Assembly: GCA_000002445.1 (NCBI GenBank)
Contig: CH464491.1
Location: 1,024,001 to 1,088,000 of the forward strand
DNA from: Trypanosoma brucei
Lineage: Eukaryota
Reading direction: 5' to 3'
DNA length: 64,000 nt
Of the stretch, positions 3,421 through 28,929 are shown one piece after another. Below the pieces are notes generated by a model. That model did no database searches. It saw only the letters and a list, made by a program, of their open reading frames with translations, and was not told the origin of the DNA. A program made the translations under genes and the position numbers. Numbering within the stretch: position 1 is the first letter of the stretch; every line of letters starts with the position of its first letter.

Positions 3421-6400
3421 ACTACCCAGCTGCTAAGTCAATGCATGTGAAGTGGGGTATCGTTTAAGGTGTTTTCATACCACATCCCTCCCTTGAGTCT
3501 GTAAAGCTTATGTTCATTTTTTTTTTTAACTCGTTTCACTGCACAATTTTCCTGCGGCACAAGGCACGCCGCCTTTTCTCTTCTTTTTTTTTTCGTTTTG
3601 TCATAGTGCCGTCTCTCTGCAGTGGGAATGAAACATTACGAAGCCCAAAAAAGGTGGGAGCTGGTGACGGGCCTTCACGTCAAAGGCAAAGTGTGTTATT
3701 TCACTGAAGGTATAGAAAATCAAGGAATCGGGGAAAAGCAACCGCTTTTTATGGGAATTGGTTGGCGGGGTCCATTCGAGGTCACCTCAACTGCGGGGCA
3801 ATGCCGGGCGGCTGAAAGAGGACCGGTACATTAAATGGCGCTAGGCTTCGCGTCATGTTGGTCGAGTCTAGGGTCTCGCTATCGAATTCCAACACACCAC
3901 CACAACCCCACTAGGAACCAAACGCAGAAATGATGATTATTATTATTATTAAAAGTTCTTGACAAACATTTGGTCGAGAAAAAAAAAACGAACAACATTT
4001 AAACGTGTAATGCTGTCGAAGTCCCGAGTACGGTCACTACAGGTGAAAGGCGAGTTGCCTGTGATTCACATTGCACTAGCGGTCTCCACACACACACGAA
4101 CACGCAGAAAAAAAAATAGAACGCTGCGCCGCCATGGGCAGAAGCCGGTGTTGTTGTAAGTTTTCTGTAAGCATGCATAATGATAGGGCGTGTGGACATT
4201 TGTATATTCCTTTTTTTCCCCCACGCTTTTGCTGCACAGATAGCGCTGTGGTGGCACAGCTCATTCAAATGGCTTTCAGGAAGGTTAGGTTGGCCACGGT
4301 ACCGTTTCCCCCCTCCAATTTCGCCACCTGTGACATTTAAGCGCGCGGATGGGGGGCTGTCAGTGCTCTTACCGTAAGTAACTGCGGGTCCTCCTCCCCT
4401 CCCTGGCCGTGTGCTCATCTTGGGTGCCTCATCAGCCCTGCTTTTCCGACAATGCGGCACCTGAGTGCATGGCGCTGGTGCATCATCCAACCATCCTTTT
4501 CCACTTCGTTCCTTTCCGCTTGGGGGCTTTGCAATGGCCGCGTTAGCTCCAAGATGAAGTTTCCTGGCGTGCTGCCATAGTCCCGTCTGTGCTCAGCAGG
4601 GCTTTCCACATTAATTCGACATCATATGTTTTTACCGAAAGGCCACTCAGGGGCGTTGCCGTTGCTTCCTCATGTTGTTCTCTTTGCTTCTTTCCTTCTA
4701 CTGTCTCCTCCGCCCTCCCTAAGACCTATTGAGCTGGTCGGTGAATAACCACGCCGCGGCAGCACTCGATCACTGCGGACTCGGTGCTATTTAAAGTGAC
4801 TGATTTTGTAAACTTCCTGCCACACCCCCCTCGATGCGCCCTGAGCCTACCCTTTTCACCCGTGGGGTCGAGCACACTGTTATCCCGTGTCAGGAATATG
4901 GCAACCGTGCTCCATTCGCGGCTCTTCTTCGCAATCGCCACTCTGTAGGTTTCCCTTCAGTCTCTCCCGTGTTGGCGACACCTCATTTATCAGGAGGAGT
5001 TTCCAATCCGCCTGAACTGTTAGTCGTGCTATGAGTCACCGTTTTCAATTTTTCCGCAAGCCCCTTTTCGGGACTCCGGTGCTCATGTCAAATCACTTCC
5101 CTTTCTTTACATAACACGCGGCCGACGGGGCTGTGGCGTCATCGTGTGTCGCTCCGCTTTGCGCCCGGTGTCAAGGAAATGCAGCCGCAGCTGAGGATTC
5201 CGGACGACACAGGAATGCCTTGCAACCCTTCCCTGAGGTGCCATGGGCTTGTGGTCGTATGTTGTTTTGAGAGATCGCCTGCTTTCGCTCGGCCAATTTT
5301 CCAGCTTCATTCCGCACCACTGATACGACCGCCTTGCAAATGGTCATCTTGGTGGTGTTAAACAGCTTCCGGACTTCGTTCTGCCTTTTCCCGCTCACCG
5401 AACCTCGGGAGCGCCCGTGCGCCACATTGAATTACACAAGCCCGAGTACTGACGGGCGGATGCGGCACTGTCCGTGACAGTCATGTTTACAAGGAGGTTT
5501 TGGGCGCCTTTTTGCCCTGTGCCAGCACTGGTGCCCGCACGCGCTTTTCGGCCACATCGTTTGCTGCTGAGTTTCATCCTGACGATAAAAAATGTTTCGG
5601 GGCATATGACCGTGCCTCGGATTCTGGCAGTGCTCCTATTCCGGGGCGGCCGCATTGTGGTTAGTTCGTTGGGAATTATGACGGGCCGGCTGCTCACCAC
5701 TTCTTCCCCTCGACCGCCTCACCGTGTGCACCGGTTTCGGCGCTTATTAGGGGCGATCGCTCTTCGGTATCGCCCAAAATGTTTCGTGGTGCGGGCACGG
5801 AATGATTCAGAGATAGTTTTTCCTGCCCTGCTGAACTTCCCCTTCTTCGGTGCAGGCTTATAGTTACCGCGGTTGCCTCTGCGCGTGCTTGGCCCTAATC
5901 CGGCTTCGAATGTAGCGTGTGCCTCTTTGTGCTTCTGCTTTATGTCTCCCACCAAAATATCAACTTTTATATGTTAGGTGTGTTTTTGTGCAGTTGTTTC
6001 TTCCACTGCAATCTCATCTGCTATTGCACTGTCTTTCCAAACAACGTGGTGGGAGAAATAAGCCGCATAGAAATCACCGCATTCTTTTTACTGATTGTGA
6101 AAATCACCCTTCCATACGCGGCTCGGGATTTCATCCTCCACGCGACTGTCTTTCATTGTTTCCAGTACCGTATTTAGCACCTTTTCAATTGGCACTGCTT
6201 CTGCACGATGGTTGCATGCCCATATTCAGGTGTCCCTTTAATTCTGTATTTTTCCGTGTTGCCGAAGATTATCATTTCTGCAGTGGACTAACTGCCTAAA
6301 CTCACCAGTTCATCTGTTGAAACTTTTCAGTCCTTGTTGTATATCCCTATTTTTTGCGGCGTATGAGCCCTCCTCCATCCGTCTGTTGCGTTTGCTTTTA

Positions 6401-8218
6401 TACCCACCCATGGAGGGCAATTTTGTGCACACTCTGGGACCAGCGTCCAAGGAGCTTTAAGTGTGGAGTACACCTTGATTTTTGGTGTCGGAGCACCATC
6501 CCTCCACTGAATTCAGCCATTCAAGTATTGGATTGTTTCGCGGACATCACCGGCTTACTATGCTTGAAAAGCGCCCTCTTTTAGCGTTTGACATGGGGCG
6601 GTATTCCGTCGTCCTCTTGTTTGCCGGTTTTCAAACAAATATCAGTCGTGCTTTTTTGAGCATGTCTTGTTTGTTCGAGTCCGAGGAAACCACAGCAATG
6701 ATTTGAACTGATTCAGCTTGCGCGCTTTCCGTCTTCCTCCCTTTCAGGTAGAGACATGAGAATCGCCTAAGAGCGACGCCGTAGTTTATCTTTTAGTGGA
6801 CGATTCCGTAGTGGAAGGCTGTAAACGCTTTCTTCCGTGGAGCACCGTTCAGCTAACACTACGGCATTGAGCCTCTCTAAACTTGTTCTTTCTGATTTTG
6901 TCGTTTGGTGAGCATGCTTTTCAATCCTTCTTTCAATGGGTGCAGTGTGGCCCGCGGGCTTTTGGGTCTTTGCATCGTTGGCCATTTTTCCTCGTCAACA
7001 TGAGGCCTTGTGGGTTCCAGATGCCTAATCCAAGTGCTGTGTGCCCCGTCTTTTCCTCCAGCGCTTGCGTATAGCATCTTAGCGGCTGTCGCGCAAACAC
7101 TCTTTCTCCGCTGCGGCGCACCTCCCAGTTTGTTTTCGTCCGAATCCGTCGCTTTGAGGATCGGATTCCTGGTAAATAAACTATCGTTGGGTCCTGGGGT
7201 CTTATTCAGTTCCGTGCTCAACGTTTCCATCGCTCTAAGAAATAGGATGCAGCCTAACGCCGACACCCGAAGAAACCCACGCGTCAATCCCGCGTTCGTC
7301 GAACTCTATAGTCGTTGTCATGATCTTTCTTGTTCAGTGAGGCGGGGAGTTGCTTATCCACCATGTTGGATGTGATATCTACTTTGAACCACCCCATCAC
7401 TCGAGCAACGTAGCTGCGACCCCACTCAATTAAGCCCCATCAAAGAGTTTATAAACACTGCTGCAATTAAGGAACTGTTTTCCTTCGATCCGATAGCACT
7501 CAGAAATTCTAAAACAGAATTAGCGCTGCATATTCATCGTTGGAAACCTGACTATTGTAGCTGAAGCGGCTCTCAGAGGCAGTTTTTTTTTCACTCTACC
7601 AAGTGCCACTCTTCGGATGACACCGACCGCGGTGCCGTCTGGCGCCAGCGGTTGGGATGATTCAACGCCTTTAGCTGATTTGTTCTGCTTAAAGAATGGT
7701 ACTATGGTCCCTCTTGGCTGCTCAGGGAATTTGTTCAACCTTTGGAAGCGGCTGTTAAACTAAGGTAAGAACCACCTTTAACGCTCCCCGGTATGAATTC
7801 CGTTGCATCCAGTCGCCGTCCACACTATATAATTTCCCCGTTACTTTCGATTCGCCACGAAGACGCCATGAATACACAACTGCGCGACTTTAAGGGCATT
7901 AGTGGAACGATTCGTATACTTGTCTGCCAAAGCCCGCAGCCGCCGCCCTTTCGTCGGTGGGTGACTGGTCATTACACTGGAATGGGGGCGGATGGCGGTC
8001 ACAACGCAAATACTGATTTTAGCAGCGCTCAGGTGTTCTTCAGGGTGGATTGTTTCGAGGCGTCCTGCCTCCCTGTCCCTAGAGCTGTTTCGGTTAGCGG
8101 ACTCTTTCTTATTTCGGTGAAGATAGTTCTCTTGGTCGACTTCCTATACTGGTTCATTCTGCTTTCAGGGGTTATCAGTTCTGCTGCTCTATCGAAGGTC
8201 GTTCGGCAGCGGTTGCCG

Positions 8219-17967: not shown

Positions 17968-18789
17968 ATGGCCAAGAAGCACCTAAAGCGCCTGTATGCC
18001 CCCAAGGACTGGATGCTGAGCAAACTCACTGGTGTGTTTGCCCCTCGTCCACGTGCTGGTCCCCACAAACTACGCGAGTGCCTTTCGCTTCTGATTATTA
18101 TTCGCAACCGGCTGAAGTATGCACTAAATGCCCTCGAAGCGCAGATGATCCTTCGTCAGGGACTCGTGTGTGTAGACGGCAAGCCCCGCAAGGATGGTAA
18201 GTACCCAGCCGGTTTCATGGACGTGGTGGAGATTCCCAAGACGGGCGACCGCTTCCGCATCCTATATGACGTGAAAGGACGCTTTGCGCTTGTCCGCGTG
18301 AGCGAGGCTGAGTCGAGCATCAAGATGATGAAGGTTGTCAACGTATACACCGGCACGGGACGCATTCCTGTTGCTGTGACACACGACGGCCACCGGATTC
18401 GCTATCCCGACCCCCGTACGAGCCGTGGAGACACTTTGGTGTATGACGTGAAAGAAAAAAAGGTTTTGGACCTAATCAAGATTGGCAACGGCAAGGTTGT
18501 GATGGTGACAGGTGGTGCCAACCGTGGTCGTATTGGAGAAATTGTGTCCATTGAACGTCACCCTGGCGCCTTCGACATCGCCCGCCTCAAGGATGCGTCT
18601 GGTCACGAATTCGCAACTCGTGCCACAAACATTTTTGTGATTGGCAAGGACATGTCGAGTGTTCCAGTTACGTTACCTAAGCAACAGGGTTTGCGTATCA
18701 ACGTGATTCAGGAGCGTGAGGAAAAACTCATAGCCGCCGAAACACGCAGAACAACTCAGGCGCACAGCAAGCGAAAGACTAAGGTGTAA
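17968..18789 (+). CDS. RPS4: 40S ribosomal protein S4 (eS4), copy 1
   Basis: 273-aa protein with the canonical eS4 N-terminus MAKKHLKRLYAPKDWMLSKLTGVFAPRPRAGPHKLRE and a KOW-like region. Identical in amino-acid sequence to copy 2. Confidence 0.95.
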   Translation: MAKKHLKRLYAPKDWMLSKLTGVFAPRPRAGPHKLRECLSLLIIIRNRLKYALNALEAQMILRQGLVCVDGKPRKDGKYPAGFMDVVEIPKTGDRFRILYDVKGRFALVRVSEAESSIKMMKVVNVYTGTGRIPVAVTHDGHRIRYPDPRTSRGDTLVYDVKEKKVLDLIKIGNGKVVMVTGGANRGRIGEIVSIERHPGAFDIARLKDASGHEFATRATNIFVIGKDMSSVPVTLPKQQGLRINVIQEREEKLIAAETRRTTQAHSKRKTKV

Positions 18790-19037: not shown

Positions 19038-19859
19038 ATGGCCAAGAAGCACCTAAAGCGCCTGTATGCCCCCAAGGACTGGATGCTGAGCAAACTCACT
19101 GGTGTGTTTGCCCCTCGTCCACGTGCTGGTCCCCACAAACTACGCGAGTGCCTTTCGCTTCTGATTATTATTCGCAACCGGCTGAAGTATGCACTAAATG
19201 CCCTCGAAGCGCAGATGATCCTTCGTCAGGGACTCGTGTGTGTAGACGGCAAGCCCCGCAAGGATGGTAAGTACCCAGCCGGTTTCATGGACGTGGTGGA
19301 GATTCCCAAGACTGGCGACCGCTTCCGCATCCTATATGACGTGAAAGGACGCTTTGCGCTTGTCCGCGTGAGCGAGGCTGAGTCGAGCATCAAGATGATG
19401 AAGGTTGTCAACGTATACACCGGCACGGGACGCATTCCTGTTGCTGTGACACACGACGGCCACCGGATTCGCTATCCCGACCCCCGTACGAGCCGTGGAG
19501 ACACTTTGGTGTATGACGTGAAAGAAAAAAAGGTTTTGGACCTAATCAAGATTGGCAACGGCAAGGTTGTGATGGTGACAGGTGGTGCCAACCGTGGTCG
19601 TATTGGAGAAATTGTGTCCATTGAACGTCACCCTGGCGCCTTCGACATCGCCCGCCTCAAGGATGCGTCTGGTCACGAATTCGCAACTCGTGCCACAAAC
19701 ATTTTTGTGATTGGCAAGGACATGTCGAGTGTTCCAGTTACGTTACCTAAGCAACAGGGTTTGCGTATCAACGTGATTCAGGAGCGTGAGGAAAAACTCA
19801 TAGCCGCCGAAACACGAAGAACAACTCAGGCGCACAGCAAGCGAAAGACTAAGGTGTAA
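19038..19859 (+). CDS. RPS4: 40S ribosomal protein S4 (eS4), copy 2
   Basis: Protein identical to copy 1. The CDS differs only at synonymous sites (for example ACG/ACT at 18243/19313 and CGC/CGA at 18747/19817). Flanking sequences are unrelated. Confidence 0.95.
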   Translation: MAKKHLKRLYAPKDWMLSKLTGVFAPRPRAGPHKLRECLSLLIIIRNRLKYALNALEAQMILRQGLVCVDGKPRKDGKYPAGFMDVVEIPKTGDRFRILYDVKGRFALVRVSEAESSIKMMKVVNVYTGTGRIPVAVTHDGHRIRYPDPRTSRGDTLVYDVKEKKVLDLIKIGNGKVVMVTGGANRGRIGEIVSIERHPGAFDIARLKDASGHEFATRATNIFVIGKDMSSVPVTLPKQQGLRINVIQEREEKLIAAETRRTTQAHSKRKTKV

Positions 19860-20151: not shown

Positions 20152-21459
20152 ATGGCTCTTGGATTTTCCTCTGCGGGGGAAGTGTACATGTACGCAACAT
20201 GCATCCTTCTTGGAGTGTCCCTTCTAATGCCCCTTAACGCTCTCGTTTCCGCACCGCGCTTTATGGTGGACTACTACAAGTACGTATCTGGTAAAGAGGA
20301 TGCCGAACCGAACCTTCCCTTTTTCTGGAAGAATATTTTCACGTTCTACAATGTTGTATCGCTTGCGTCGCAGGTGATTGCTGGACCGACCGTTCTAACT
20401 CGTGCAGCCCGTCGACTTTCATTATCTGTGCGCTTTGCCCTTTCCATCACGTTGATGATGTCGGAGGTATTTGTAGTTCTCATGATGCCTGTGATCAAGG
20501 TACCTCAAACAGTTGCCATTGTTCTTCTCTGCCTTGTGACAATATTTGCAGGTATTGGGAAATCATACCATGAGGCGACGTGCTACGTTCTGGTGGCGTC
20601 GATGCCATCTAAGTTCATGTCTGCTGTTATGTTTGGAGTGTCACTATGCGGTGTAATAACGTCCACACTACAGTGCATCATCAAGGCATCGATGGAAGAT
20701 ACCTATGAGTCCGTGCTGACGCAGTCATACATTTATTTTTCACTTGGTCTACTGATAATGGCGGGTACACTTGCGATGGCTCTCTGTCTACGATATAATT
20801 CCTACGCGCAGGAGCACGTTGCTGAGTACCGTATGCTCAAACTACAAGAACAAGGAGTAGATGCTGAGTCTCAAAATGATGAGAATGAACCCGTGGCTGA
20901 AGGTAAAGGTGAAGGTGAAGGTAAGAGTGAGGGTGCCATGACGACAGCAGAGCAACTGACGGCAACTGCTGTTATGCCCGTAGCGAGGATAATCCGTATG
21001 ATGTTAGTGACAGTCTTCTGCGGCTTCTTCCTCACCTTATTTATCTTCCCCAGTCTTATTATTCCCATCGATCGTGACCACAATTGGTTTGCGACAATTG
21101 CCATTCTGCTATACAACTGTGGGGATGCTATTGGACGTTTCTCCACCTCGTTCAAGTGCGTTTGGCCGCCCCGCCGTGCTCTGCTGTACGCCACCTTCGC
21201 CCGCTTCATTTTTGTTCTGCCCTTCATGTTATGCATTTACCAATACATCCCTGGCCATGTCGGTCCGTATATCTTCTCGTTTCTCCTTGGCCTGACCAAC
21301 TGTGTGGGTGCCATGTCGATGGTGTATGGCCCAATAACCCCTGGTCTTGAGACTGCGGGTCAGAAATTGATGGCTGGACAGTTGATGGGGATTTCGCTGC
21401 TTTCTGGAATTGCCGCTGCATCTGTGCTTGCGATGATTGTGGTTGTCTTCCTACCATGA
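20152..21459 (+). CDS. ENT-family (equilibrative nucleoside/nucleobase) transporter, array copy 1, 435 aa; resembles the T. brucei NT8 nucleobase-transporter cluster
   Basis: Multi-pass membrane protein with ENT-family topology: TM1 near the N-terminus, a large acidic cytoplasmic loop (EGKGEGEGKSEG) between TM6 and TM7, and 10-11 hydrophobic helices. Tandem triplication next to RPS4 and ADSS is reminiscent of the T. brucei chromosome 11 NT8.1-8.3 locus; this is recalled from memory, not verified. Confidence 0.85.
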   Translation: MALGFSSAGEVYMYATCILLGVSLLMPLNALVSAPRFMVDYYKYVSGKEDAEPNLPFFWKNIFTFYNVVSLASQVIAGPTVLTRAARRLSLSVRFALSITLMMSEVFVVLMMPVIKVPQTVAIVLLCLVTIFAGIGKSYHEATCYVLVASMPSKFMSAVMFGVSLCGVITSTLQCIIKASMEDTYESVLTQSYIYFSLGLLIMAGTLAMALCLRYNSYAQEHVAEYRMLKLQEQGVDAESQNDENEPVAEGKGEGEGKSEGAMTTAEQLTATAVMPVARIIRMMLVTVFCGFFLTLFIFPSLIIPIDRDHNWFATIAILLYNCGDAIGRFSTSFKCVWPPRRALLYATFARFIFVLPFMLCIYQYIPGHVGPYIFSFLLGLTNCVGAMSMVYGPITPGLETAGQKLMAGQLMGISLLSGIAAASVLAMIVVVFLP

Positions 21460-21693: not shown

Positions 21694-21721
21694 AGGCAGC
21701 ATAAACTATTTTGGACTGCCT
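21694..21721 (+). promoter_or_regulatory. Conserved 3'-flank hairpin of the transporter genes (copy 1); candidate cis-regulatory stem-loop. Identical elements lie at 24667-24694 and 27598-27625.
   Basis: A-GGCAG-(16-nt loop)-CTGCC-T stem-loop about 235 nt downstream of each stop codon. It is preserved in the otherwise diverged flank of copy 3. Confidence 0.45.
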
Positions 21722-22900: not shown

Positions 22901-25871
22901 TAAATACTTGCCTGTAAAATGAGCAGTATCATCCCCACTTAAGGAAACTGTAAGCTTAGTCACTTCCCTCCTTTCTCTTTCTTTTTGTACGAAGGTTAAA
23001 GCCACAAGACTCTCTTACTGAACTCAGGCAAGTGAACAACACCGCACTAAACCAGAATCGCATAAGTTACATCCACTATCCATCCACTCGGGTTTAACTG
23101 AATTGCATCGCTGGATACCTTTCGTGTGCAATGGCTCTTGGATTTTCCTCTGCGGGGGAAGTGTACATGTACGCAACATGCATCCTTCTTGGAGTGTCCC
23201 TTCTAATGCCCCTTAACGCTCTCGTTTCCGCACCGCGCTTTATGGTGGACTACTACAAGTACGTATCTGGTAAAGAGGATGCCGAACCGAACCTTCCCTT
23301 TTTCTGGAAGAATATTTTCACGTTCTACAATGTTGTATCGCTTGCGTCGCAGGTGATTGCTGGACCGACCGTTCTAACTCGTGCAGCCCGTCGACTTTCA
23401 TTATCTGTGCGCTTTGCCCTTTCCATCACGTTGATGATGTCGGAGGTATTTGTAGTTCTCATGATGCCTGTGATCAAGGTACCTCAAACAGTTGCCATTG
23501 TTCTTCTCTGCCTTGTGACAATATTTGCAGGTATTGGGAAATCATACCATGAGGCGACGTGCTACGTTCTGGTGGCGTCGATGCCATCTAAGTTCATGTC
23601 TGCTGTTATGTTTGGAGTGTCACTATGCGGTGTAATAACGTCCACACTACAGTGCATCATCAAGGCATCGATGGAAGATACCTATGAGTCCGTGCTGACG
23701 CAGTCATACATTTATTTTTCACTTGGTCTACTGATAATGGCGGGTACACTTGCGATGGCTCTCTGTCTACGATATAATTCCTACGCGCAGGAGCACGTTG
23801 CTGAGTACCGTATGCTCAAACTACAAGAACAAGGAGTAGATGCTGAGTCTCAAAATGATGAGAAGGAACCCGTGGCTGAAGGTAAAGGTGAAGGTGAAGG
23901 TAAGAGTGAGGGTGCCATGACGACAGCAGAGCAACTGACGGCAACTGCTGTTATGCCCGTAGCGAGGATAATCCGTATGATGTTAGTGACAGTCTTCTGC
24001 GGCTTCTTCCTCACCTTATTTATCTTCCCCAGTCTTATTATTCCCATCGATCGTGACCACAATTGGTTTGCGACAATTGCCATTCTGCTATACAACTGTG
24101 GGGATGCTATTGGACGTTTCTCCACCTCGTTCAAGTGCGTTTGGCCGCCCCGCCGTGCTCTGCTGTACGCCACCTTCGCCCGCTTCATTTTTGTTCTGCC
24201 CTTCATGTTATGCATTTACCAATACATCCCTGGCCATGTCGGTCCGTATATCTTCTCGTTTCTCCTTGGCCTGACCAACTGTGTGGGTGCCATGTCGATG
24301 GTGTATGGCCCAATAACCCCTGGTCTTGAGACTGCGGGTCAGAAATTGATGGCTGGACAGTTGATGGGGATTTCGCTGCTTTCTGGAATTGCCGCTGCAT
24401 CTGTGCTTGCGATGATTGTGGTTGTCTTCCTACCATGAGTACGCTTAATGGAGGAGCCGCCTCTCACTAACACCACTTTGTTAGTACGTGACGTGTTTTA
24501 AGTGATGGAGCATCGTTGATGTTTTATCAAAGATACTATCTTAACTTGTATATATATATATATATATATATGTATTAGTTTATATCTTTTTTACATTAAC
24601 AAGATTATTTTATTTTAATTATTTATTTTTTTTTGATTTTCCTTTAACTGAAGGCATGTGCGGGTAAGGCAGCATAAACTATTTTGGACTGCCTCAGTAC
24701 GCTAGCCCCTTTATAACATACGTTTTTGTTTATTTTTTTTGTCTTAGGACTGCTTCCCCGCTACTGGGTATGTTGAGGGAAAAAACGTCAGACACTTTCT
24801 CTCGGCACCTGGTGCGGTGTGTCCGGCATTTACTTCCCTTCCTTTTTTTTTATGATGCACATTACGTTGCCTGCTGAAGATATTGTTTGGAGCAATGTGC
24901 TTGTGGTGTTTGGGTGTACTGAAATTTGTGGTGAGACGGTGCGACTCTTGTGTGGTTAAGTAAAGGAATGTGAACTGATTGTACGATATGCCACTGGTGT
25001 CGCTACCATTCACTGTCAACGAGCTTCAACCATTATTAGTGGTGTGATTTTAGTGGATATAAATAAGAAATAAATTCCTAGTGTGTGTTTTCTCCCGTTT
25101 CCTCCTTCTTTCATGTAGGCCAACTTTAGTGCGTATGTACGGAGGGATAATATTAGTGTTTAGTAATTTCTGCGTAAATACCTGCGGTTTCCTTGTTTGC
25201 AGCAACACGTTACCTTTCAACTATAGACCTCCGTTGCGTGCTACAATCGTTATTTGTGTATTATAATTATCTATTTTAAAAAATTTTTCTATATATATAT
25301 ATGTTTGTTTGTTGTATAACTTCGGGGAAGCGCTGTTTTGTAAGGCCGTGTTAGGAAATCTGTATTACTGGTAACAGTAGTAATAAATGGGAGATCGTCT
25401 AATTTGTGTGCGTCACGGGGTTTAATGATTATTGTGATGTGCGGTTGTATTGCTGTTATTTTCTGCATCTGATATGCTTTAGGTTTAAGTACTCAATACC
25501 TTCTCCATCCATATAGATATTGTTTCCTTCTCTTTCTCTTTCTCCTTTTCTTTCTTATATCTTATTCCTACTGCCCCATTGCGATAGTGATAGCGTCAAG
25601 TTTATGTATGTTGTTGTAGTTGTACTTGCCGCGCTGCTTCGAAGCTGTTGGCTCACCAATGGTTTTACTGGATATGGTGTTCCGAAGTTTTTGGAGGACC
25701 TATTGCATATGTCCATGTTGCTGTACCGTTGTGTTTGCCTTTCGATGAACTCCCGTGGATTTGCGTGCTCGTGTTTTTGCTTTTTGCTTCTGTTATGTGG
25801 TAATTGCGGATGTGTATACGATGGCGATATCCACAAAATATGTGATAAGGATGGTGCAGAACCGCAACCAC
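22901..25871 (+). repeat. Transporter tandem-array repeat unit 2 (2971 bp)
   Basis: Direct repeat of unit 1. The length difference is mainly in the (TA)n tracts at 24549-24571 and 25297-25312. Confidence 0.9.
23131..24438 (+). CDS. ENT-family transporter, array copy 2, 435 aa
   Basis: Differs from copy 1 by a single residue in the acidic loop (NDENEP versus NDEKEP). 5' and 3' flanks are near-identical to those of copy 1. Confidence 0.85.
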   Translation: MALGFSSAGEVYMYATCILLGVSLLMPLNALVSAPRFMVDYYKYVSGKEDAEPNLPFFWKNIFTFYNVVSLASQVIAGPTVLTRAARRLSLSVRFALSITLMMSEVFVVLMMPVIKVPQTVAIVLLCLVTIFAGIGKSYHEATCYVLVASMPSKFMSAVMFGVSLCGVITSTLQCIIKASMEDTYESVLTQSYIYFSLGLLIMAGTLAMALCLRYNSYAQEHVAEYRMLKLQEQGVDAESQNDEKEPVAEGKGEGEGKSEGAMTTAEQLTATAVMPVARIIRMMLVTVFCGFFLTLFIFPSLIIPIDRDHNWFATIAILLYNCGDAIGRFSTSFKCVWPPRRALLYATFARFIFVLPFMLCIYQYIPGHVGPYIFSFLLGLTNCVGAMSMVYGPITPGLETAGQKLMAGQLMGISLLSGIAAASVLAMIVVVFLP

Positions 25872-28260
25872 TAAATACTTGCCTGTAAAATGAGCAGTAT
25901 CATCCCCACTTAAGGAAACTGTAAGCTTAGTCACTTCCCTCCTTTCTCTTTCTTTTTGTACGAAGGTTAAAGCCACAAGACTCTCTTACTGAACTCAGGC
26001 AAGTGAACAACACCGCACTAAACCAGAATCGCATAAGTTACATCCACTATCCATCCACTCGGGTTTAACTGAATTGCATCGCTGGATACCTTTCGTGTGC
26101 AATGGCTCTTGGATTTTCCTCTGCGGGGGAAGTGTACATGTACGCAACATGCATCCTTCTTGGGATTTCCCTCCTCATGCCTCTCTGTGTCCTGGTTTCC
26201 GCACCAAGCTTTATGTTGAACTACTACAAGTACGTATCTGGTAAAGAGGATTCCGAACCGAACCTTCCCTTTTTCTGGAAGAATATTTTCACGTTCTACA
26301 ATGTTGTATCGCTTGCGTCGCAGGTGATTGCTGGACCGACCGTTCTAACTCGTGCAGCCCGTCGACTTTCATTATCTGTGCGCTTTGCCCTTTCCATCAC
26401 GTTGATGATGTCGGAGGTATTTGTAGTTCTCATGATGCCTGTGATCAAGGTACCTCAAACAGTTGCCATTGTTCTTCTCTGCCTTGTGACAATATTTGCA
26501 GGTATTGGGAAATCATACCATGAGGCGACGTGCTACGTTCTGGTGGCGTCGATGCCATCTAAGTTCATGTCTGCTGTTATGTTTGGAGTGTCACTATGCG
26601 GTGTAATAACGTCCACACTACAGTGCATCATCAAGGCATCGATGGATGATACCTATGAGTCTGTGCTGAAGCAGTCATACATTTATTTTTCACTTGGGAT
26701 TTTAATAATGTCCGCAACACTTGCGATGGCTCTCTGTCTACGATATAATTCCTACGCGCAGGAGCACGTTGCTGAGTACCGTATGCTCAAACTACAAGAA
26801 CAAGGAGTAGATGCTGAGTCTCAACATGATGAGAATGAACCCACTGCTGAAGGTGAAGGTGAAAGTAAAGGTGAGGGTGGCGAAGGTGATGCTGAAGGTG
26901 GCATGACGACAGCAGAGCAACTGACAGCAACTGCTGTTATGCCTGTCGTGAAGATTATCCGTATGATGTTATTATGTGTCTTCTGCGGCTTCTTCCTCAC
27001 CTTATTTATCTTCCCCAGTCTTATTATTCCCATCGATCGTAAACACAATTGGTTTGCGACAATTGCCATTCTGCTATACAACTGTGGGGATGCTATTGGA
27101 CGTTTCTCCACCTCGTTCAAGTGCGTTTGGCCGCCCCGCCGTGCTCTGCTGTATTTCACTTTTGGTCGCTTTATTTTTATTTTGCCTTTTATTCTGTGTA
27201 TTTACAAACACATCCCTGGTCACGCAGCTCCGTATATCTTCTCGTTTCTCCTTGGCCTGACCAACTGTGTGGGTGCCATGTCGATGGTGTATGGCCCAAT
27301 AACCCCTGGTCTTGAGACTGCGGGTCAGAAATTGATGGCTGGACAGTTGATGGGGATTTCGCTGCTTTCTGGAATTGCCGCTGCATCTGTGCTTGCGATG
27401 ATTGTGGTTATCTTCCTACCATGAGTACGCATAATGGAGGGGCCGCCTCTCGCTTAAACATTCTTTTTTATGTATTAATTTTTTGTAATTTCTTTTTTGT
27501 TTTTAATATATGTAAAGTATCTTAACGTAACATTTTTGGTACTTAATTATTTTGTTGTTTTTTGTGATTTTCTTTTAATTGAAGGCAAGTGTGGGTGAGG
27601 CAGCATAAACTATTTTGGACTGCCTCAGTACGCTAGTCGGTTACTAAATTTGAAAATTTTGTCTTAGGACTGCTTCCCCGCTACTGGGTATGTTGAGGGA
27701 AAAAACGTCAGACACTTTCTCTCGGCACCTGGTGCGGTGTGTCCGGCATTTACTTCCCTTCCTTTTTTTTATGATGCACATTACGTTGCCTGCTGAAGAT
27801 ATTGTTTGGAGCAATGTGCTTGTGGTGTTTGGGTGTACTGAAATTTGTGGTGAGATGGTGCGACTCTTGTGTGGTTAAGTAAAGGAATGTGAACTGATTG
27901 TACGATATGCCACTGGTGTCGCTACCATTCACTGTTAATGGCCTCGACCATTTTTTTTTTTGACATTAATGGGGAAATTTTTGTTTTTGTAAAACGGCAT
28001 GAAGAAAGTAATAATACTGGTATCAGTAGTAATAAACGGGGATTCACCTAACTCTCGTGTAGTTTGCGGTTATTCTGCTTGTTGTTGTACCTACTGTGCT
28101 TTAATGCAATGTGGTTGGTGGGTCCTTCATTTCTCTATCTTTCTCTGCTTCTTCTTTAATTTTTTTTCTTATCTCTTAATCTTAATGTTTCACTGCGGCA
28201 GTTATTGCTCCAAGCTTGTGTATGTTGTAGCTGTACTTGGTGAGTTGTTCTTCTTTGTGT
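25872..28260 (+). repeat. Transporter tandem-array repeat unit 3 (diverged; the 3' flank decays after about 27935)
   Basis: The 5' flank and most of the CDS are identical to units 1 and 2. The 3' flank retains the conserved blocks 27598-27625 and 27650-27935, with residual similarity to about 28260. Confidence 0.8.
26102..27424 (+). CDS. ENT-family transporter, array copy 3 (diverged paralog, 440 aa)
   Basis: Same family. Long stretches are nucleotide-identical to copies 1 and 2, interrupted by diverged tracts in TM1, the TM6-7 acidic loop (5-aa insertion), and the TM9-10 region. Confidence 0.85.
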   Translation: MALGFSSAGEVYMYATCILLGISLLMPLCVLVSAPSFMLNYYKYVSGKEDSEPNLPFFWKNIFTFYNVVSLASQVIAGPTVLTRAARRLSLSVRFALSITLMMSEVFVVLMMPVIKVPQTVAIVLLCLVTIFAGIGKSYHEATCYVLVASMPSKFMSAVMFGVSLCGVITSTLQCIIKASMDDTYESVLKQSYIYFSLGILIMSATLAMALCLRYNSYAQEHVAEYRMLKLQEQGVDAESQHDENEPTAEGEGESKGEGGEGDAEGGMTTAEQLTATAVMPVVKIIRMMLLCVFCGFFLTLFIFPSLIIPIDRKHNWFATIAILLYNCGDAIGRFSTSFKCVWPPRRALLYFTFGRFIFILPFILCIYKHIPGHAAPYIFSFLLGLTNCVGAMSMVYGPITPGLETAGQKLMAGQLMGISLLSGIAAASVLAMIVVIFLP

Positions 28261-28371: not shown

Positions 28372-28929
28372 ATGTTAAAGTGCTCCTTGTGCTATCTAGC
28401 AAGCAAGGTGACTGCGGGTAATGCGAAAAATCAAGCCGGCCACCCAAGGCGGAGGGCTAAACTATTTCATGTTGTTCCTGGTACTCCAGTTACTCCATTT
28501 GAGAAGCTAAAGGAACAGAGGCGGCGGTTTGGTCAGGATCGTCATTCGCGTTTACCTGAATATCGACCAGGGAATAATGTCCGTATGGATCCTAATACAT
28601 ACACGTTGTACGCCACAAAGAAGGGCGTGATGACGATACGTGAGAGCCGCATTAATCCCAAGTATAAATGGCTTGATGTGGAACCTGACATTCAAAAGGT
28701 TTATCGCAGTAGAGAATTGCGACGGGCACTTCAGGAAAGGGAAATGGCCTCTATGGCGGTTGGTGAAAACTCGAACTACCGGGTAGAACTGGACTTGTTG
28801 CTGGAACCGGATTGGCGTGAGCGTGTCATGCATGTGCCGAAGGCTACGGAGCGCTTCAAGGACCCCAATCTCTTTACCCGTGGTGTTGTTAACGAGCTGT
28901 CACCCTTGGATAGGTACAGTTACACATGA
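28372..28929 (+). CDS. hypothetical protein, 185 aa
   Basis: First ATG after a very long T-rich polypyrimidine tract (28130-28370). Composition is non-repetitive and coding-like. No motif recognised, and the start codon is uncertain. Confidence 0.35.
   Translation: MLKCSLCYLASKVTAGNAKNQAGHPRRRAKLFHVVPGTPVTPFEKLKEQRRRFGQDRHSRLPEYRPGNNVRMDPNTYTLYATKKGVMTIRESRINPKYKWLDVEPDIQKVYRSRELRRALQEREMASMAVGENSNYRVELDLLLEPDWRERVMHVPKATERFKDPNLFTRGVVNELSPLDRYSYT

What the first reader, a model, noticed from the sequence alone, without database searches (positions are those of the whole stretch)
26102..27424. Third ENT transporter copy is a mosaic of identical and roughly 20%-diverged tracts, a signature of gene conversion with selective retention
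Copies 1 and 2 differ by one amino acid. Copy 3 is nucleotide-identical to them over long runs: 26102-26162, about 26225-26640, about 26705-26815, about 26985-27150 and about 27235-27424. It is sharply diverged in four discrete blocks. These are TM1 and its extracellular end (26163-26225: GVSLLMPLNALVSAPRFMVDYY to GISLLMPLCVLVSAPSFMLNYY), the TM5/6 region (MEDTYESVLTQ...LGLLIMAGT to MDDTYESVLKQ...LGILIMSAT), the acidic cytoplasmic loop (a 5-aa longer EGEGESKGEGGEGDAEGG variant), and TM9-10 (LLYATFARFIFVLPFMLCIYQYIPGHVGPY to LLYFTFGRFIFILPFILCIYKHIPGHAAPY). In ENT transporters, TM1, TM5 and TM9-10 line the permeant pathway. The retained differences therefore sit where substrate specificity or affinity is set, while conversion homogenises the rest. 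This looks like an actively diversifying nutrient-uptake module.
Basis: seen in the sequence. Interest (0 to 1): 0.6.

Follow-up and report, generated by a model that had tools for sequence, protein, structure and literature searches.

The report
Patchwork nucleobase transporter gene NT8.3
The last gene of a three-copy purine nucleobase transporter array in Trypanosoma brucei really is a patchwork of stretches identical to its neighbours and old, roughly 20%-diverged stretches. This is ordinary gene conversion in a trypanosome tandem array, not demonstrated adaptive diversification.

Summary
The window is T. brucei brucei TREU927 chromosome 11. The three genes are NT8.1, NT8.2 and NT8.3 (Tb927.11.3610, .3620, .3630). 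NT8.3 differs from NT8.1 by 78 substitutions and one 15-nt indel. These fall in four blocks plus three isolated spots. Clustering is significant (P<1e-5), also at third codon positions alone.

Inside the blocks, synonymous divergence is high (pS 0.44) and dN/dS is about 0.2. Outside them pS is 0. The blocks are therefore old sequence under purifying selection, and the rest has been homogenised.

The array-terminal copies of T. b. gambiense and T. b. equiperdum are different mosaics built from the same diverged bases (35 of 36 shared sites agree). PHI gives P=0.0002. Only the TM6 patch, two TM7 sites and the proximal 3'UTR are diverged in all three. The TM9 block and the loop insertion occur only in TREU927.

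Two of the four blocks lie on peripheral helices (TM6, TM9) and one mostly in a disordered repeat loop. Only N29C in TM1 aligns with a cavity-facing hENT1 residue.

Gene conversion is supported. Selective retention at specificity sites and active diversification are not. Subspecies-specific mosaics are already documented for most T. brucei tandem arrays, though I did not find this array in the main text of those surveys.

The parts
20152..21459 (+). NT8.1 (Tb927.11.3610), an 'A-type' ENT nucleobase transporter CDS of 435 aa. It is a likely donor of the homogenised tracts.
   Evidence: ORF. Pfam PF01733, 93.7 bits. Identical protein is P0048, NT81_TRYB2. Gene identifiers from PMC8776092.
23131..24438 (+). 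NT8.2 (Tb927.11.3620), A-type. It differs from NT8.1 by 1 nt.
   Evidence: P0053.
26102..27424 (+). NT8.3 (Tb927.11.3630), the 3'-terminal copy of the array, 440 aa. It is a mosaic of A-identical and diverged 'B-type' tracts.
   Evidence: 100% identical to XP_828444. Alignment. Pfam PF01733, 100.8 bits. AlphaFold model has the ENT fold.
26164..26252 (+). B-type block 1: outer half of TM1 plus the start of extracellular loop 1 (V22I, N29C, A30V, R36S, V39L, D40N, A51S).
   Evidence: 18 differences; pS 0.43, pN 0.12. TM1 is residues 8-32 in the model. Residue 29 aligns with hENT1 N30. The same bases at alignment columns 63-93 occur in T. b. equiperdum copies c1 and c4.
26253..26646 (+). Longest A-identical (homogenised) tract, 394 nt, covering TM2 to TM5.
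   Evidence: The T. b. equiperdum terminal copy carries diverged bases inside this interval (alignment columns 268-286 and 373-444). Whether those are remnants of the same old paralogue cannot be confirmed from sharing, because they occur in that copy only.
26647..26716 (+). B-type block 2: TM5-6 loop and TM6 (E182D, T190K, L200I, A204S, G205A).
   Evidence: 12 differences; pS 0.41, pN 0.09. TM6 is residues 185-215. Its 3' part (alignment columns 598-615) is the only coding patch of several sites that is B-type in the terminal copies of all three subspecies.
26825..26977 (+). B-type block 3: disordered acidic cytoplasmic loop with a 15-nt insertion in a degenerate TGAAGG hexamer repeat (26848-26900), plus the cytoplasmic end of TM7 (A278V, R279K, V286L, T287C in NT8.1 numbering).
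   Evidence: pLDDT is below 50 for residues 239-263.
27041..27043 (+). Isolated two-nucleotide codon change D309K (NT8.1 numbering) in the TM7-8 loop.
27154..27228 (+). B-type block 4: TM9, the TM9-10 loop and the first residues of TM10 (A347F, A350G, V355I, M359I, Q364K, Y365H, V370A, G371A). It is the most diverged block and, among the assemblies compared, is present only in TREU927.
   Evidence: 23 differences; pS 0.82, pN 0.15. TM9 is residues 346-367. Absent from the gambiense and equiperdum copies.
27425..27656 (+). B-type proximal 3'UTR, heavily diverged with indels. It is B-type in the terminal copy of all three subspecies.
   Evidence: 139 non-identical alignment columns against the A-type UTR.
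27599..27624 (+). Core of the purine-response stem-loop (PuRE), conserved exactly inside the diverged 3'UTR. The same core is at 21695-21720 and 24668-24693.
   Evidence: Exact matches. Predicted fold of -20.3 kcal/mol, z = -3.6 for the copy-3 version. PMC4066783 states that all three NT8 genes carry the element.
27657..27952 (+). Distal 3'UTR tract that is again A-identical (homogenised). Array homology ends at about 27952.

Best explanation
NT8.3 is the 3'-terminal member of the NT8 tandem array (RPS4 x2, then NT8 x3, then a 185-aa ORF, then adenylosuccinate synthetase). My reading is that it began as an older paralogue ('B-type') that had diverged from the NT8.1/8.2 lineage by about 20% of all sites and about 30% of third positions. 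That split came after the T. brucei lineage separated from T. congolense and T. vivax, and long before the T. brucei subspecies split.

Repeated short-tract, non-reciprocal gene conversions from the neighbouring A-type units have since overwritten most of it. The A-identical runs are about 60 to 400 nt. What remains are B-type islands in the coding sequence and in the proximal 3'UTR.

The process is ongoing and goes both ways. Each subspecies has a different subset of B islands, and one internal T. b. equiperdum copy has received the B-type TM1 patch. Copy number also varies (3, at least 5 and at least 5), so unequal crossing-over acts as well.

What is shown: the mosaic, its statistical support, the homogenised silent sites, the shared B bases across assemblies, and purifying selection in the B tracts.

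What is inferred: that the B tracts are in-situ remnants rather than imports, that conversion runs mainly from A into the terminal copy, and that an end copy is homogenised less because it has array homology on one side only and a diverged 3'UTR.
For: - Identity and context.
- Mosaic and clustering.
- Silent sites: pS 0.44 in the blocks against 0 in the other 228 synonymous sites; dN/dS 0.2.
- Age of the split: A-B block distance is 0.20 (third positions 0.31), against 0.34-0.37 (0.57-0.66) to T. congolense and T. vivax. Outside the blocks A-B is 0.004 while the interspecies distance is unchanged.
- Polarity is mixed: each type carries derived states relative to the outgroups.
- Other assemblies: terminal copies are different mosaics, 35 of 36 shared non-consensus sites carry the same base, and an internal equiperdum copy has the TM1 patch.
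- Recombination tests: PHI P=0.0002 and 301 of 741 incompatible site pairs.
- The 3'UTR is also a mosaic, with a B-type proximal part in all three subspecies.
- Published precedent: sequence mosaics in 31 of 35 variable T. brucei arrays, including the chromosome 2 adenosine (ENT) transporter array (PMC2854126). Divergent end copies with distinct UTRs are described as 'mixed dynamics' arrays (PMC1855330).
Against: - No intact B-type gene was found, so the ancestral paralogue is a reconstruction.
- An ectopic donor elsewhere in the T. brucei genome could not be searched at the DNA level. The protein search found only the two NT8 clusters in T. brucei.
- Only three subspecies assemblies were compared. 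The gambiense array has a 100-N gap, so its copy order is uncertain.
- Block limits were set by the differences themselves, which inflates the within-block divergence somewhat.
- Some diverged sites in the equiperdum terminal copy are private to it and cannot be confirmed as B-type by sharing.
- The conserved TM6 patch and proximal 3'UTR in all three lineages could reflect selection rather than shared ancestry.
Confidence: 0.8

Rival explanations
1. One reading: gene conversion homogenises the gene, while selection holds on to the differences at residues that set substrate specificity or affinity. NT8.3 would then be a functionally distinct, actively diversifying uptake module.
For: - The ORF is intact in all three subspecies, and the B tracts evolved under purifying selection, so the B-type protein has been functional.
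- N29C in TM1 aligns with hENT1 N30, a cavity-facing residue (PMC9678926).
- The TM6 patch and the proximal 3'UTR are B-type in all three terminal copies.
- Several kinetically defined T. brucei nucleobase transport activities (H1-H3) have no gene named against them in the review table (PMC10208901).
Against: - dN/dS is 0.2 in the blocks, so there is no excess of replacement changes.
- Three of the four blocks, or most of them, are missing from the gambiense or equiperdum terminal copy.
- Blocks 2 and 4 sit on support helices TM6 and TM9, and block 3 is mostly a disordered repeat loop.
- The non-coding 3'UTR shows the same patchwork, so no protein-level selection is needed to produce the pattern.
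Confidence: 0.12
2. The diverged blocks were imported by ectopic gene conversion from a diverged NT8-like sequence elsewhere in the genome, for example a subtelomeric copy or a pseudogene.
For: T. congolense has dispersed NT8-like genes next to VSG genes, so dispersed copies exist in a related species. The T. brucei genome could not be searched at the DNA level with these tools.
Against: - The protein search returned no other T. brucei ENT closer than the two NT8 clusters.
- B tracts are found almost only in the array-terminal copy, at homologous positions in three subspecies, and are contiguous with a B-type 3'UTR.
- Jackson 2007 reports that ectopic conversion is rare in T. brucei arrays.
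Confidence: 0.05
3. The mosaic is an assembly chimera of collapsed repeats, or simply reflects uneven selective constraint along the gene without any recombination.
For: Tandem arrays are prone to misassembly. The gambiense array has a gap, and an internal copy there carries an array-end 3' flank.
Against: - The same B-type bases recur in independent assemblies of two other subspecies.
- The A-identical gaps between blocks are at most 394 nt. I infer that single Sanger reads would span neighbouring blocks.
- The ORF is intact.
- Uneven constraint cannot explain identity at third codon positions over 146 consecutive third positions (P<1e-5), nor pS of 0 against 0.44.
Confidence: 0.03

Closest known systems
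Subspecies-specific sequence mosaics and concerted evolution in T. brucei tandem gene arrays (Jackson 2007, PMC1855330; Jackson et al. 2010, PMC2854126)
   Same: A tandem array in a polycistronic unit. Near-identical internal copies, including their intergenic regions. Recombination tests are positive. Copies differ between T. b. brucei and T. b. gambiense as recombinants of shared sequence types. There is a divergent copy at the array end with a distinct UTR ('mixed dynamics'). The chromosome 2 adenosine (ENT) transporter array is a listed example.
   Different: The NT8 array is not in Table 2 of the 2010 paper, and 'nucleobase' does not occur in the main text of either paper. I did not check the supplements. 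Unlike the 'mixed dynamics' arrays, the divergent copy here does not keep orthology with a divergent copy in other species: B is closer to A than to T. congolense or T. vivax, and the T. vivax array is almost homogeneous.
TbNT8.1 / TbNBT1 (the H4 purine nucleobase transporter) and the NT8.1-8.3 locus
   Same: It is the same locus. NT8.1 and NT8.2 are the characterised transporter type. All three genes carry the 3'UTR purine-response stem-loop bound by PuREBP1/2 (PMC4066783, PMC8053114). The whole locus has been deleted to make a nucleobase-uptake null background (PMC8776092, PMC9331716).
   Different: I found no paper in the searchable library that characterises NT8.3 on its own or describes its mosaic structure. 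The original cloning papers (Burchmore 2003, Henriques 2003) are not held, so I could not check them.
Segmental gene conversion that builds mosaic VSG genes in T. brucei
   Same: Short-tract, non-reciprocal transfers between diverged paralogues produce patchwork genes in the same organism.
   Different: VSG mosaics are selected for antigenic novelty and draw on a large archive of donors. Here there are two sequence types in one array, and the net effect is homogenisation.
Human ENT1 (SLC29A1; PDB 6OB6, 6OB7)
   Same: Same fold: Foldseek TM-score 0.83-0.87 on the target. hhalign probability is 98.6%. Both have 11 TM helices and a large TM6-7 loop.
   Different: About 16-23% identity. NT8 is a high-affinity purine nucleobase transporter in a protozoan. 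It is consistent with the published residue numbers L26, N30 and M33.

Membership tests
Equilibrative nucleoside transporter family (ENT / SLC29, Pfam PF01733) | Significant match to the family profile | tested here: met
   PF01733 at 100.8 bits (NT8.3) and 93.7 bits (NT8.1), against a cut-off of 29.8.
Equilibrative nucleoside transporter family (ENT / SLC29, Pfam PF01733) | 11-TM MFS-like fold with a large cytoplasmic loop between TM6 and TM7 | tested here: met
   The AlphaFold model (pLDDT 83, pTM 0.84) has 11 long helices and a disordered 239-263 loop. The best PDB matches are hENT1 structures, with target TM-score 0.83-0.87. hhalign probability is 98.6%.
Equilibrative nucleoside transporter family (ENT / SLC29, Pfam PF01733) | Transport of nucleobases or nucleosides | not testable with these tools
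   Shown in the literature for NT8.1/NBT1 only (PMC10208901). I found no data for NT8.3.
Interlocus gene conversion / concerted evolution within a tandem array | Paralogues within the species are more alike than orthologues between species at a syntenic locus | tested here: met
   A-B distance is 0.004 outside the blocks and 0.20 inside, against 0.31-0.37 to T. congolense and T. vivax. The array is syntenic in T. vivax.
Interlocus gene conversion / concerted evolution within a tandem array | Differences are significantly clustered, including at silent sites | tested here: met
   Permutation P<1e-5 for all sites and for third positions. pS is 0 outside the blocks and 0.44 inside.
Interlocus gene conversion / concerted evolution within a tandem array | Phylogenetic incompatibility between neighbouring sites (recombination tests) | tested here: met
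   PHI observed 0.144 against a permuted mean of 0.407, P=0.0002. 301 of 741 site pairs fail compatibility.
Interlocus gene conversion / concerted evolution within a tandem array | An identifiable donor for the transferred tracts | tested here: met
   The identical tracts match NT8.1/NT8.2 exactly. No donor was found for the diverged tracts, which I interpret as remnants.
Positive (diversifying) selection on a paralogue | Excess of non-synonymous over synonymous change in the variable regions | tested here: not met
   dN/dS is 0.16-0.46 per block and 0.20 overall, by Nei-Gojobori.
Positive (diversifying) selection on a paralogue | Variable regions are retained consistently across lineages despite conversion | tested here: not met
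   Only the TM6 patch, two TM7 sites (columns 843 and 855) and the proximal 3'UTR are shared by all three terminal copies. The TM9 block and the loop insert are unique to TREU927.
Positive (diversifying) selection on a paralogue | Changes lie at substrate-contacting positions | tested here: inconclusive
   N29C aligns with cavity-facing hENT1 N30. Blocks 2 and 4 lie on TM6 and TM9, and block 3 in a disordered loop.
'Mixed dynamics' tandem arrays (Jackson 2007) | A divergent copy at the array end with its own UTR | tested here: met
   The terminal copy has a B-type proximal 3'UTR.
'Mixed dynamics' tandem arrays (Jackson 2007) | The divergent copy keeps orthology with a divergent copy in other species | tested here: not met
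   The B blocks are closer to A than to any outgroup copy. The four T. vivax copies differ by at most 10 nt.
PuRE-regulated NT8 mRNAs | The purine-response stem-loop is present in the 3'UTR | tested here: met
   The exact 26-nt core is in all three 3'UTRs and is predicted to form a hairpin. Regulation of the NT8.3 transcript in particular was not tested.

The most novel reading that the evidence does not exclude
NT8.3 is kinetically distinct from NT8.1. The cause would be its B-type residues, above all the cavity-facing N29C/A30V pair in TM1, together with a distinct proximal 3'UTR. On this reading it encodes one of the T. brucei purine nucleobase transport activities (H1, H2 or H3) that have no gene named against them in the review table. 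Strain-specific conversion mosaics would then produce heritable differences in purine and purine-analogue drug uptake between T. brucei subspecies.
Probability: 0.12. Interest if true: 0.55.

Novelty: new member of a known kind. Interest (0 to 1): 0.27.

Why it matters
The NT8 locus supplies purine nucleobases to a parasite that cannot make purines, and it takes up purine antimetabolites. The annotated 'NT8.3' is not a fixed third isoform. It is a strain-specific patchwork, so results obtained with one strain's NT8.3 need not transfer to another. Gene-level comparisons, RNA-seq read assignment and RNAi or knockout design at this locus should allow for that.

As evolutionary biology it adds one clear example to a phenomenon already documented across T. 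brucei arrays. It shows an old paralogue being eroded piecemeal in different ways in three subspecies. It does not change how the process is understood.

Tried and rejected
- phmmer of NT8.3 against PDB sequences found nothing at E<=0.001. A profile of the N-terminal 60 residues did not retrieve hENT1 either. Only residues 66-228 and 281-451 of that sequence are corroborated by the PDB alignment.
- The Burchmore 2003 paper (PMID 12707261) is not held, so I could not check what the original cloning papers said about NT8.2 and NT8.3.
- Searches for NT8.3 and the gene identifiers found only papers that name the locus, none that describe the mosaic.
- I considered whether B-type is simply the ancestral state and A-type the derived one. 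Outgroup polarity is mixed, so both lineages have changed.
- I looked for the same pattern in T. vivax. Its four copies are nearly identical, with only a small cluster at positions 222-234 in the first copy.
- I did not search the metagenome or prokaryotic genome collections for a donor, because they do not hold trypanosome genomes.
Full report
**What and where.** The copy-3 protein is 100% identical to XP_828444/EAN79332, 'nucleobase transporter, putative', of Trypanosoma brucei brucei TREU927, on a 5.26-Mb contig (chromosome 11). Copies 1 and 2 fall in the cluster that holds NT81_TRYB2/TbNT8.1 and TbNBT1. The literature calls the three genes NT8.1, NT8.2 and NT8.3, or Tb927.11.3610.3620 and .3630 (PMC8776092 and PMC9331716). 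All long ORFs around them are on the + strand, as expected for a trypanosome polycistronic unit. The gene order is M1 aminopeptidase, a TPK-like gene, two RPS4 genes, the NT8 array, a 185-aa ORF, then adenylosuccinate synthetase. T. vivax has the same order, with four NT8 copies.

**The observation.**
- Copies 1 and 2 differ at one base.
- Copy 3 differs from copy 1 by 78 substitutions and a 15-nt insertion.
- Nearly all differences lie in four blocks: 26164-26252, 26647-26716, 26825-26977 and 27154-27228.
- Three outliers remain: A51S at 26252 (I count it with block 1), the D-to-K codon at 27041-27043, and V-to-I at 27410.
- Identical runs reach 394 nt.

Random placement of 78 differences gives a mean longest identical run of 79 nt and never more than 235 nt in 100,000 trials. 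The test is equally extreme when only third codon positions are used. The pattern is therefore not chance, and it is not just uneven protein constraint.

**What the blocks are.** Nei-Gojobori counts give pS 0.44 and pN 0.12 inside the blocks, so dN/dS is about 0.2. Across the remaining 228 synonymous sites pS is 0. The blocks are old sequence that evolved under purifying selection, and everything between them has been homogenised down to the silent sites.

In the blocks, the distance between the two types is 0.20 (0.31 at third positions). The distance to T. congolense and T. vivax genes is 0.34-0.37 (0.57-0.66). Outside the blocks the interspecies distance is unchanged but the A-B distance is 0.004. 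The second type ('B') therefore split from the NT8.1 type ('A') within the T. brucei lineage, long before the subspecies diverged. Outgroup polarity is mixed, so both types carry derived states.

**Evidence from other assemblies.** The 90% cluster of NT8.1 holds variants from T. b. gambiense DAL972, T. b. equiperdum and two cloned genes. I fetched both arrays and aligned all CDSs. In each subspecies the copy next to the adenylosuccinate synthetase side is the divergent one, but each is a different mosaic.

| Copy | Diverged tracts (alignment columns) |
|---|---|
| TREU927 c3 (terminal) | 63-151, 546-615, 724-876, 940-942, 1053-1127, 1309 |
| gambiense c5 (terminal) | 598-629, 843-855, 1309 |
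| equiperdum c4 (terminal) | 63-93, 268-286, 373-444, 540-615, 798-876 |
| equiperdum c1 (internal) | 63-93 |

Single stray differences are left out of the table. Where two or more copies are non-consensus, they carry the same base at 35 of 36 sites. On ten sequences the PHI test gives P=0.0002, and 301 of 741 informative site pairs are incompatible.

Copy number differs as well. TREU927 has 3 copies. The gambiense locus shows at least 5, though its assembly has a 100-N gap. The equiperdum locus shows at least 5, because its first fetched copy is preceded by internal spacer.

These data show ongoing conversion in both directions plus unequal crossing-over. They also make an assembly chimera very unlikely, because independent assemblies share the B bases. 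In TREU927 the blocks are separated by at most 394 nt.

The patchwork continues into the 3'UTR.
- 27425-27656 is strongly diverged, with indels. This part is B-type in the terminal copy of all three subspecies.
- 27657-27935 is again identical to the A units.
- Array homology ends near 27952.
- Inside the diverged part, the 26-nt core of the purine-response stem-loop (27599-27624) is conserved exactly. This agrees with the published statement that all three NT8 genes carry the element (PMC4066783; PuREBP1/2 binding in PMC8053114).
- The spacer upstream of copy 3 is A-type: about 7 mismatches over 1.6 kb by subtraction from the whole-unit alignment.

**Structure.** NT8.3 matches Pfam PF01733. 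An AlphaFold model (pLDDT 83, pTM 0.84) has 11 long helices, and its best PDB matches are the hENT1 structures. From the model and the hENT1 profile alignment:
- Block 1 is the outer half of TM1 plus the start of extracellular loop 1.
- Block 2 is the TM5-6 loop and TM6.
- Block 3 is mostly the disordered TM6-7 loop, where the 15-nt indel lies in a degenerate TGAAGG hexamer repeat and may be simple slippage. It also includes four changes at the cytoplasmic end of TM7.
- Block 4 is TM9, the TM9-10 loop and the first two residues of TM10.

In MFS-type folds TM3, TM6 and TM9 are outer support helices (general knowledge). For hENT1, TM9 is described as filling the place of MFS TM9 and TM12 (PMC9678926). 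There, N29C aligns with hENT1 N30, which 'faces into the central cavity' (PMC9678926). That single position is a reasonable lead for functional difference, but no more than a lead.

**Interpretation.** The best-supported account is an old paralogue at the end of the array being overwritten piecemeal by short-tract conversion from its neighbours, with different remnants surviving in different lineages.

'Selective retention' is not excluded for the TM6 patch and the proximal 3'UTR, which are B-type in all three subspecies. With three related lineages, though, shared ancestry explains that equally well. The other blocks are demonstrably dispensable in at least one subspecies. 'Active diversification' is contradicted by dN/dS of 0.2.

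**Comparison with what is known.** Jackson (2007, PMC1855330) and Jackson et al. (2010, PMC2854126) showed that variable T. brucei arrays evolve in concert by gene conversion and unequal crossing-over. They found mosaics in 31 of 35 arrays compared between T. b. brucei and T. b. gambiense, often subspecies-specific, and noted that divergent copies tend to sit at array ends with distinct UTRs. The chromosome 2 adenosine transporter (ENT) array is in their table. The NT8 array is not. I found no paper in the searchable library that describes the NT8.3 mosaic, but the original cloning papers are not held.

This is a new documented example of a known kind of event at a well-known locus.

**Verdict.** Interest is modest. 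The main practical point is that 'NT8.3' is a strain-specific patchwork rather than a stable isoform.

Noticed in passing
window 17968-18789 and 19038-19859: Two tandem 273-aa RPS4 genes just upstream of the NT8 array differ by only 2 of 822 nt. This is a second small homogenised array, and T. vivax has the same duplication at the syntenic place.
   Followed up: partly
window 26102-27424 compared with 20152-21459: At the sites where the two types differ, the homogenised A-type has G/C and the B-type has A/T in 46 cases, against 18 the other way (binomial P=0.0006). Block 4 has GC 0.51 in A and 0.36 in B. This fits GC-biased gene conversion or codon-usage selection in the much-converted copies. 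The trend in the equiperdum terminal copy is weaker (28 against 16, P=0.10).
   Followed up: partly
window 27599-27624 (also 21695-21720 and 24668-24693): The purine-response stem-loop core is conserved exactly within an otherwise heavily diverged proximal 3'UTR of NT8.3. An A-to-G change just 5' of it lengthens the predicted stem in copy 3 (-20.3 against -13.3 kcal/mol for the 52-nt context).
   Followed up: partly
L001 (T. b. gambiense FN554974) 6304-7563: An internal gambiense copy (4996-6303) is followed by array-end type 3' flank, then a 100-N gap (7464-7563) and a 256-aa gene fragment. The DAL972 array is probably misassembled or incomplete here, so its copy order and number are uncertain.
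   Followed up: partly
L003 10001-14223 and L005 1983-6187 (T. congolense IL3000): Two T. congolense NT8-like genes are each followed directly by a VSG_B-domain gene. L003 also has cathepsin-like peptidase genes nearby. T. congolense therefore has dispersed NT8 paralogues in VSG-containing regions, unlike the single syntenic array seen in T. brucei and T. vivax.
   Followed up: no
proteins P0054 (AAO60071, TbNBT1) and P0055 (AAM64205, TbNT8.1): The two originally cloned genes carry single B-type-like states: S51 in both, as in TREU927 NT8.3, and P90 in TbNBT1, as in the equiperdum terminal copy. This hints at very short conversion patches or old polymorphisms in other strains.
   Followed up: no
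window 28372-28929: A 185-aa ORF between the array and adenylosuccinate synthetase has no Pfam match. A gene of the same length is called at the same place in T. vivax, and one of 191 aa in T. b. equiperdum. I did not compare the sequences.
   Followed up: no
L004 5622-6932 (T. vivax first array copy): The first T. vivax copy differs from the other three mainly by a tight cluster of 5 differences at CDS positions 222-234. This is a small mosaic patch in an end copy of an otherwise homogenised array.
   Followed up: no
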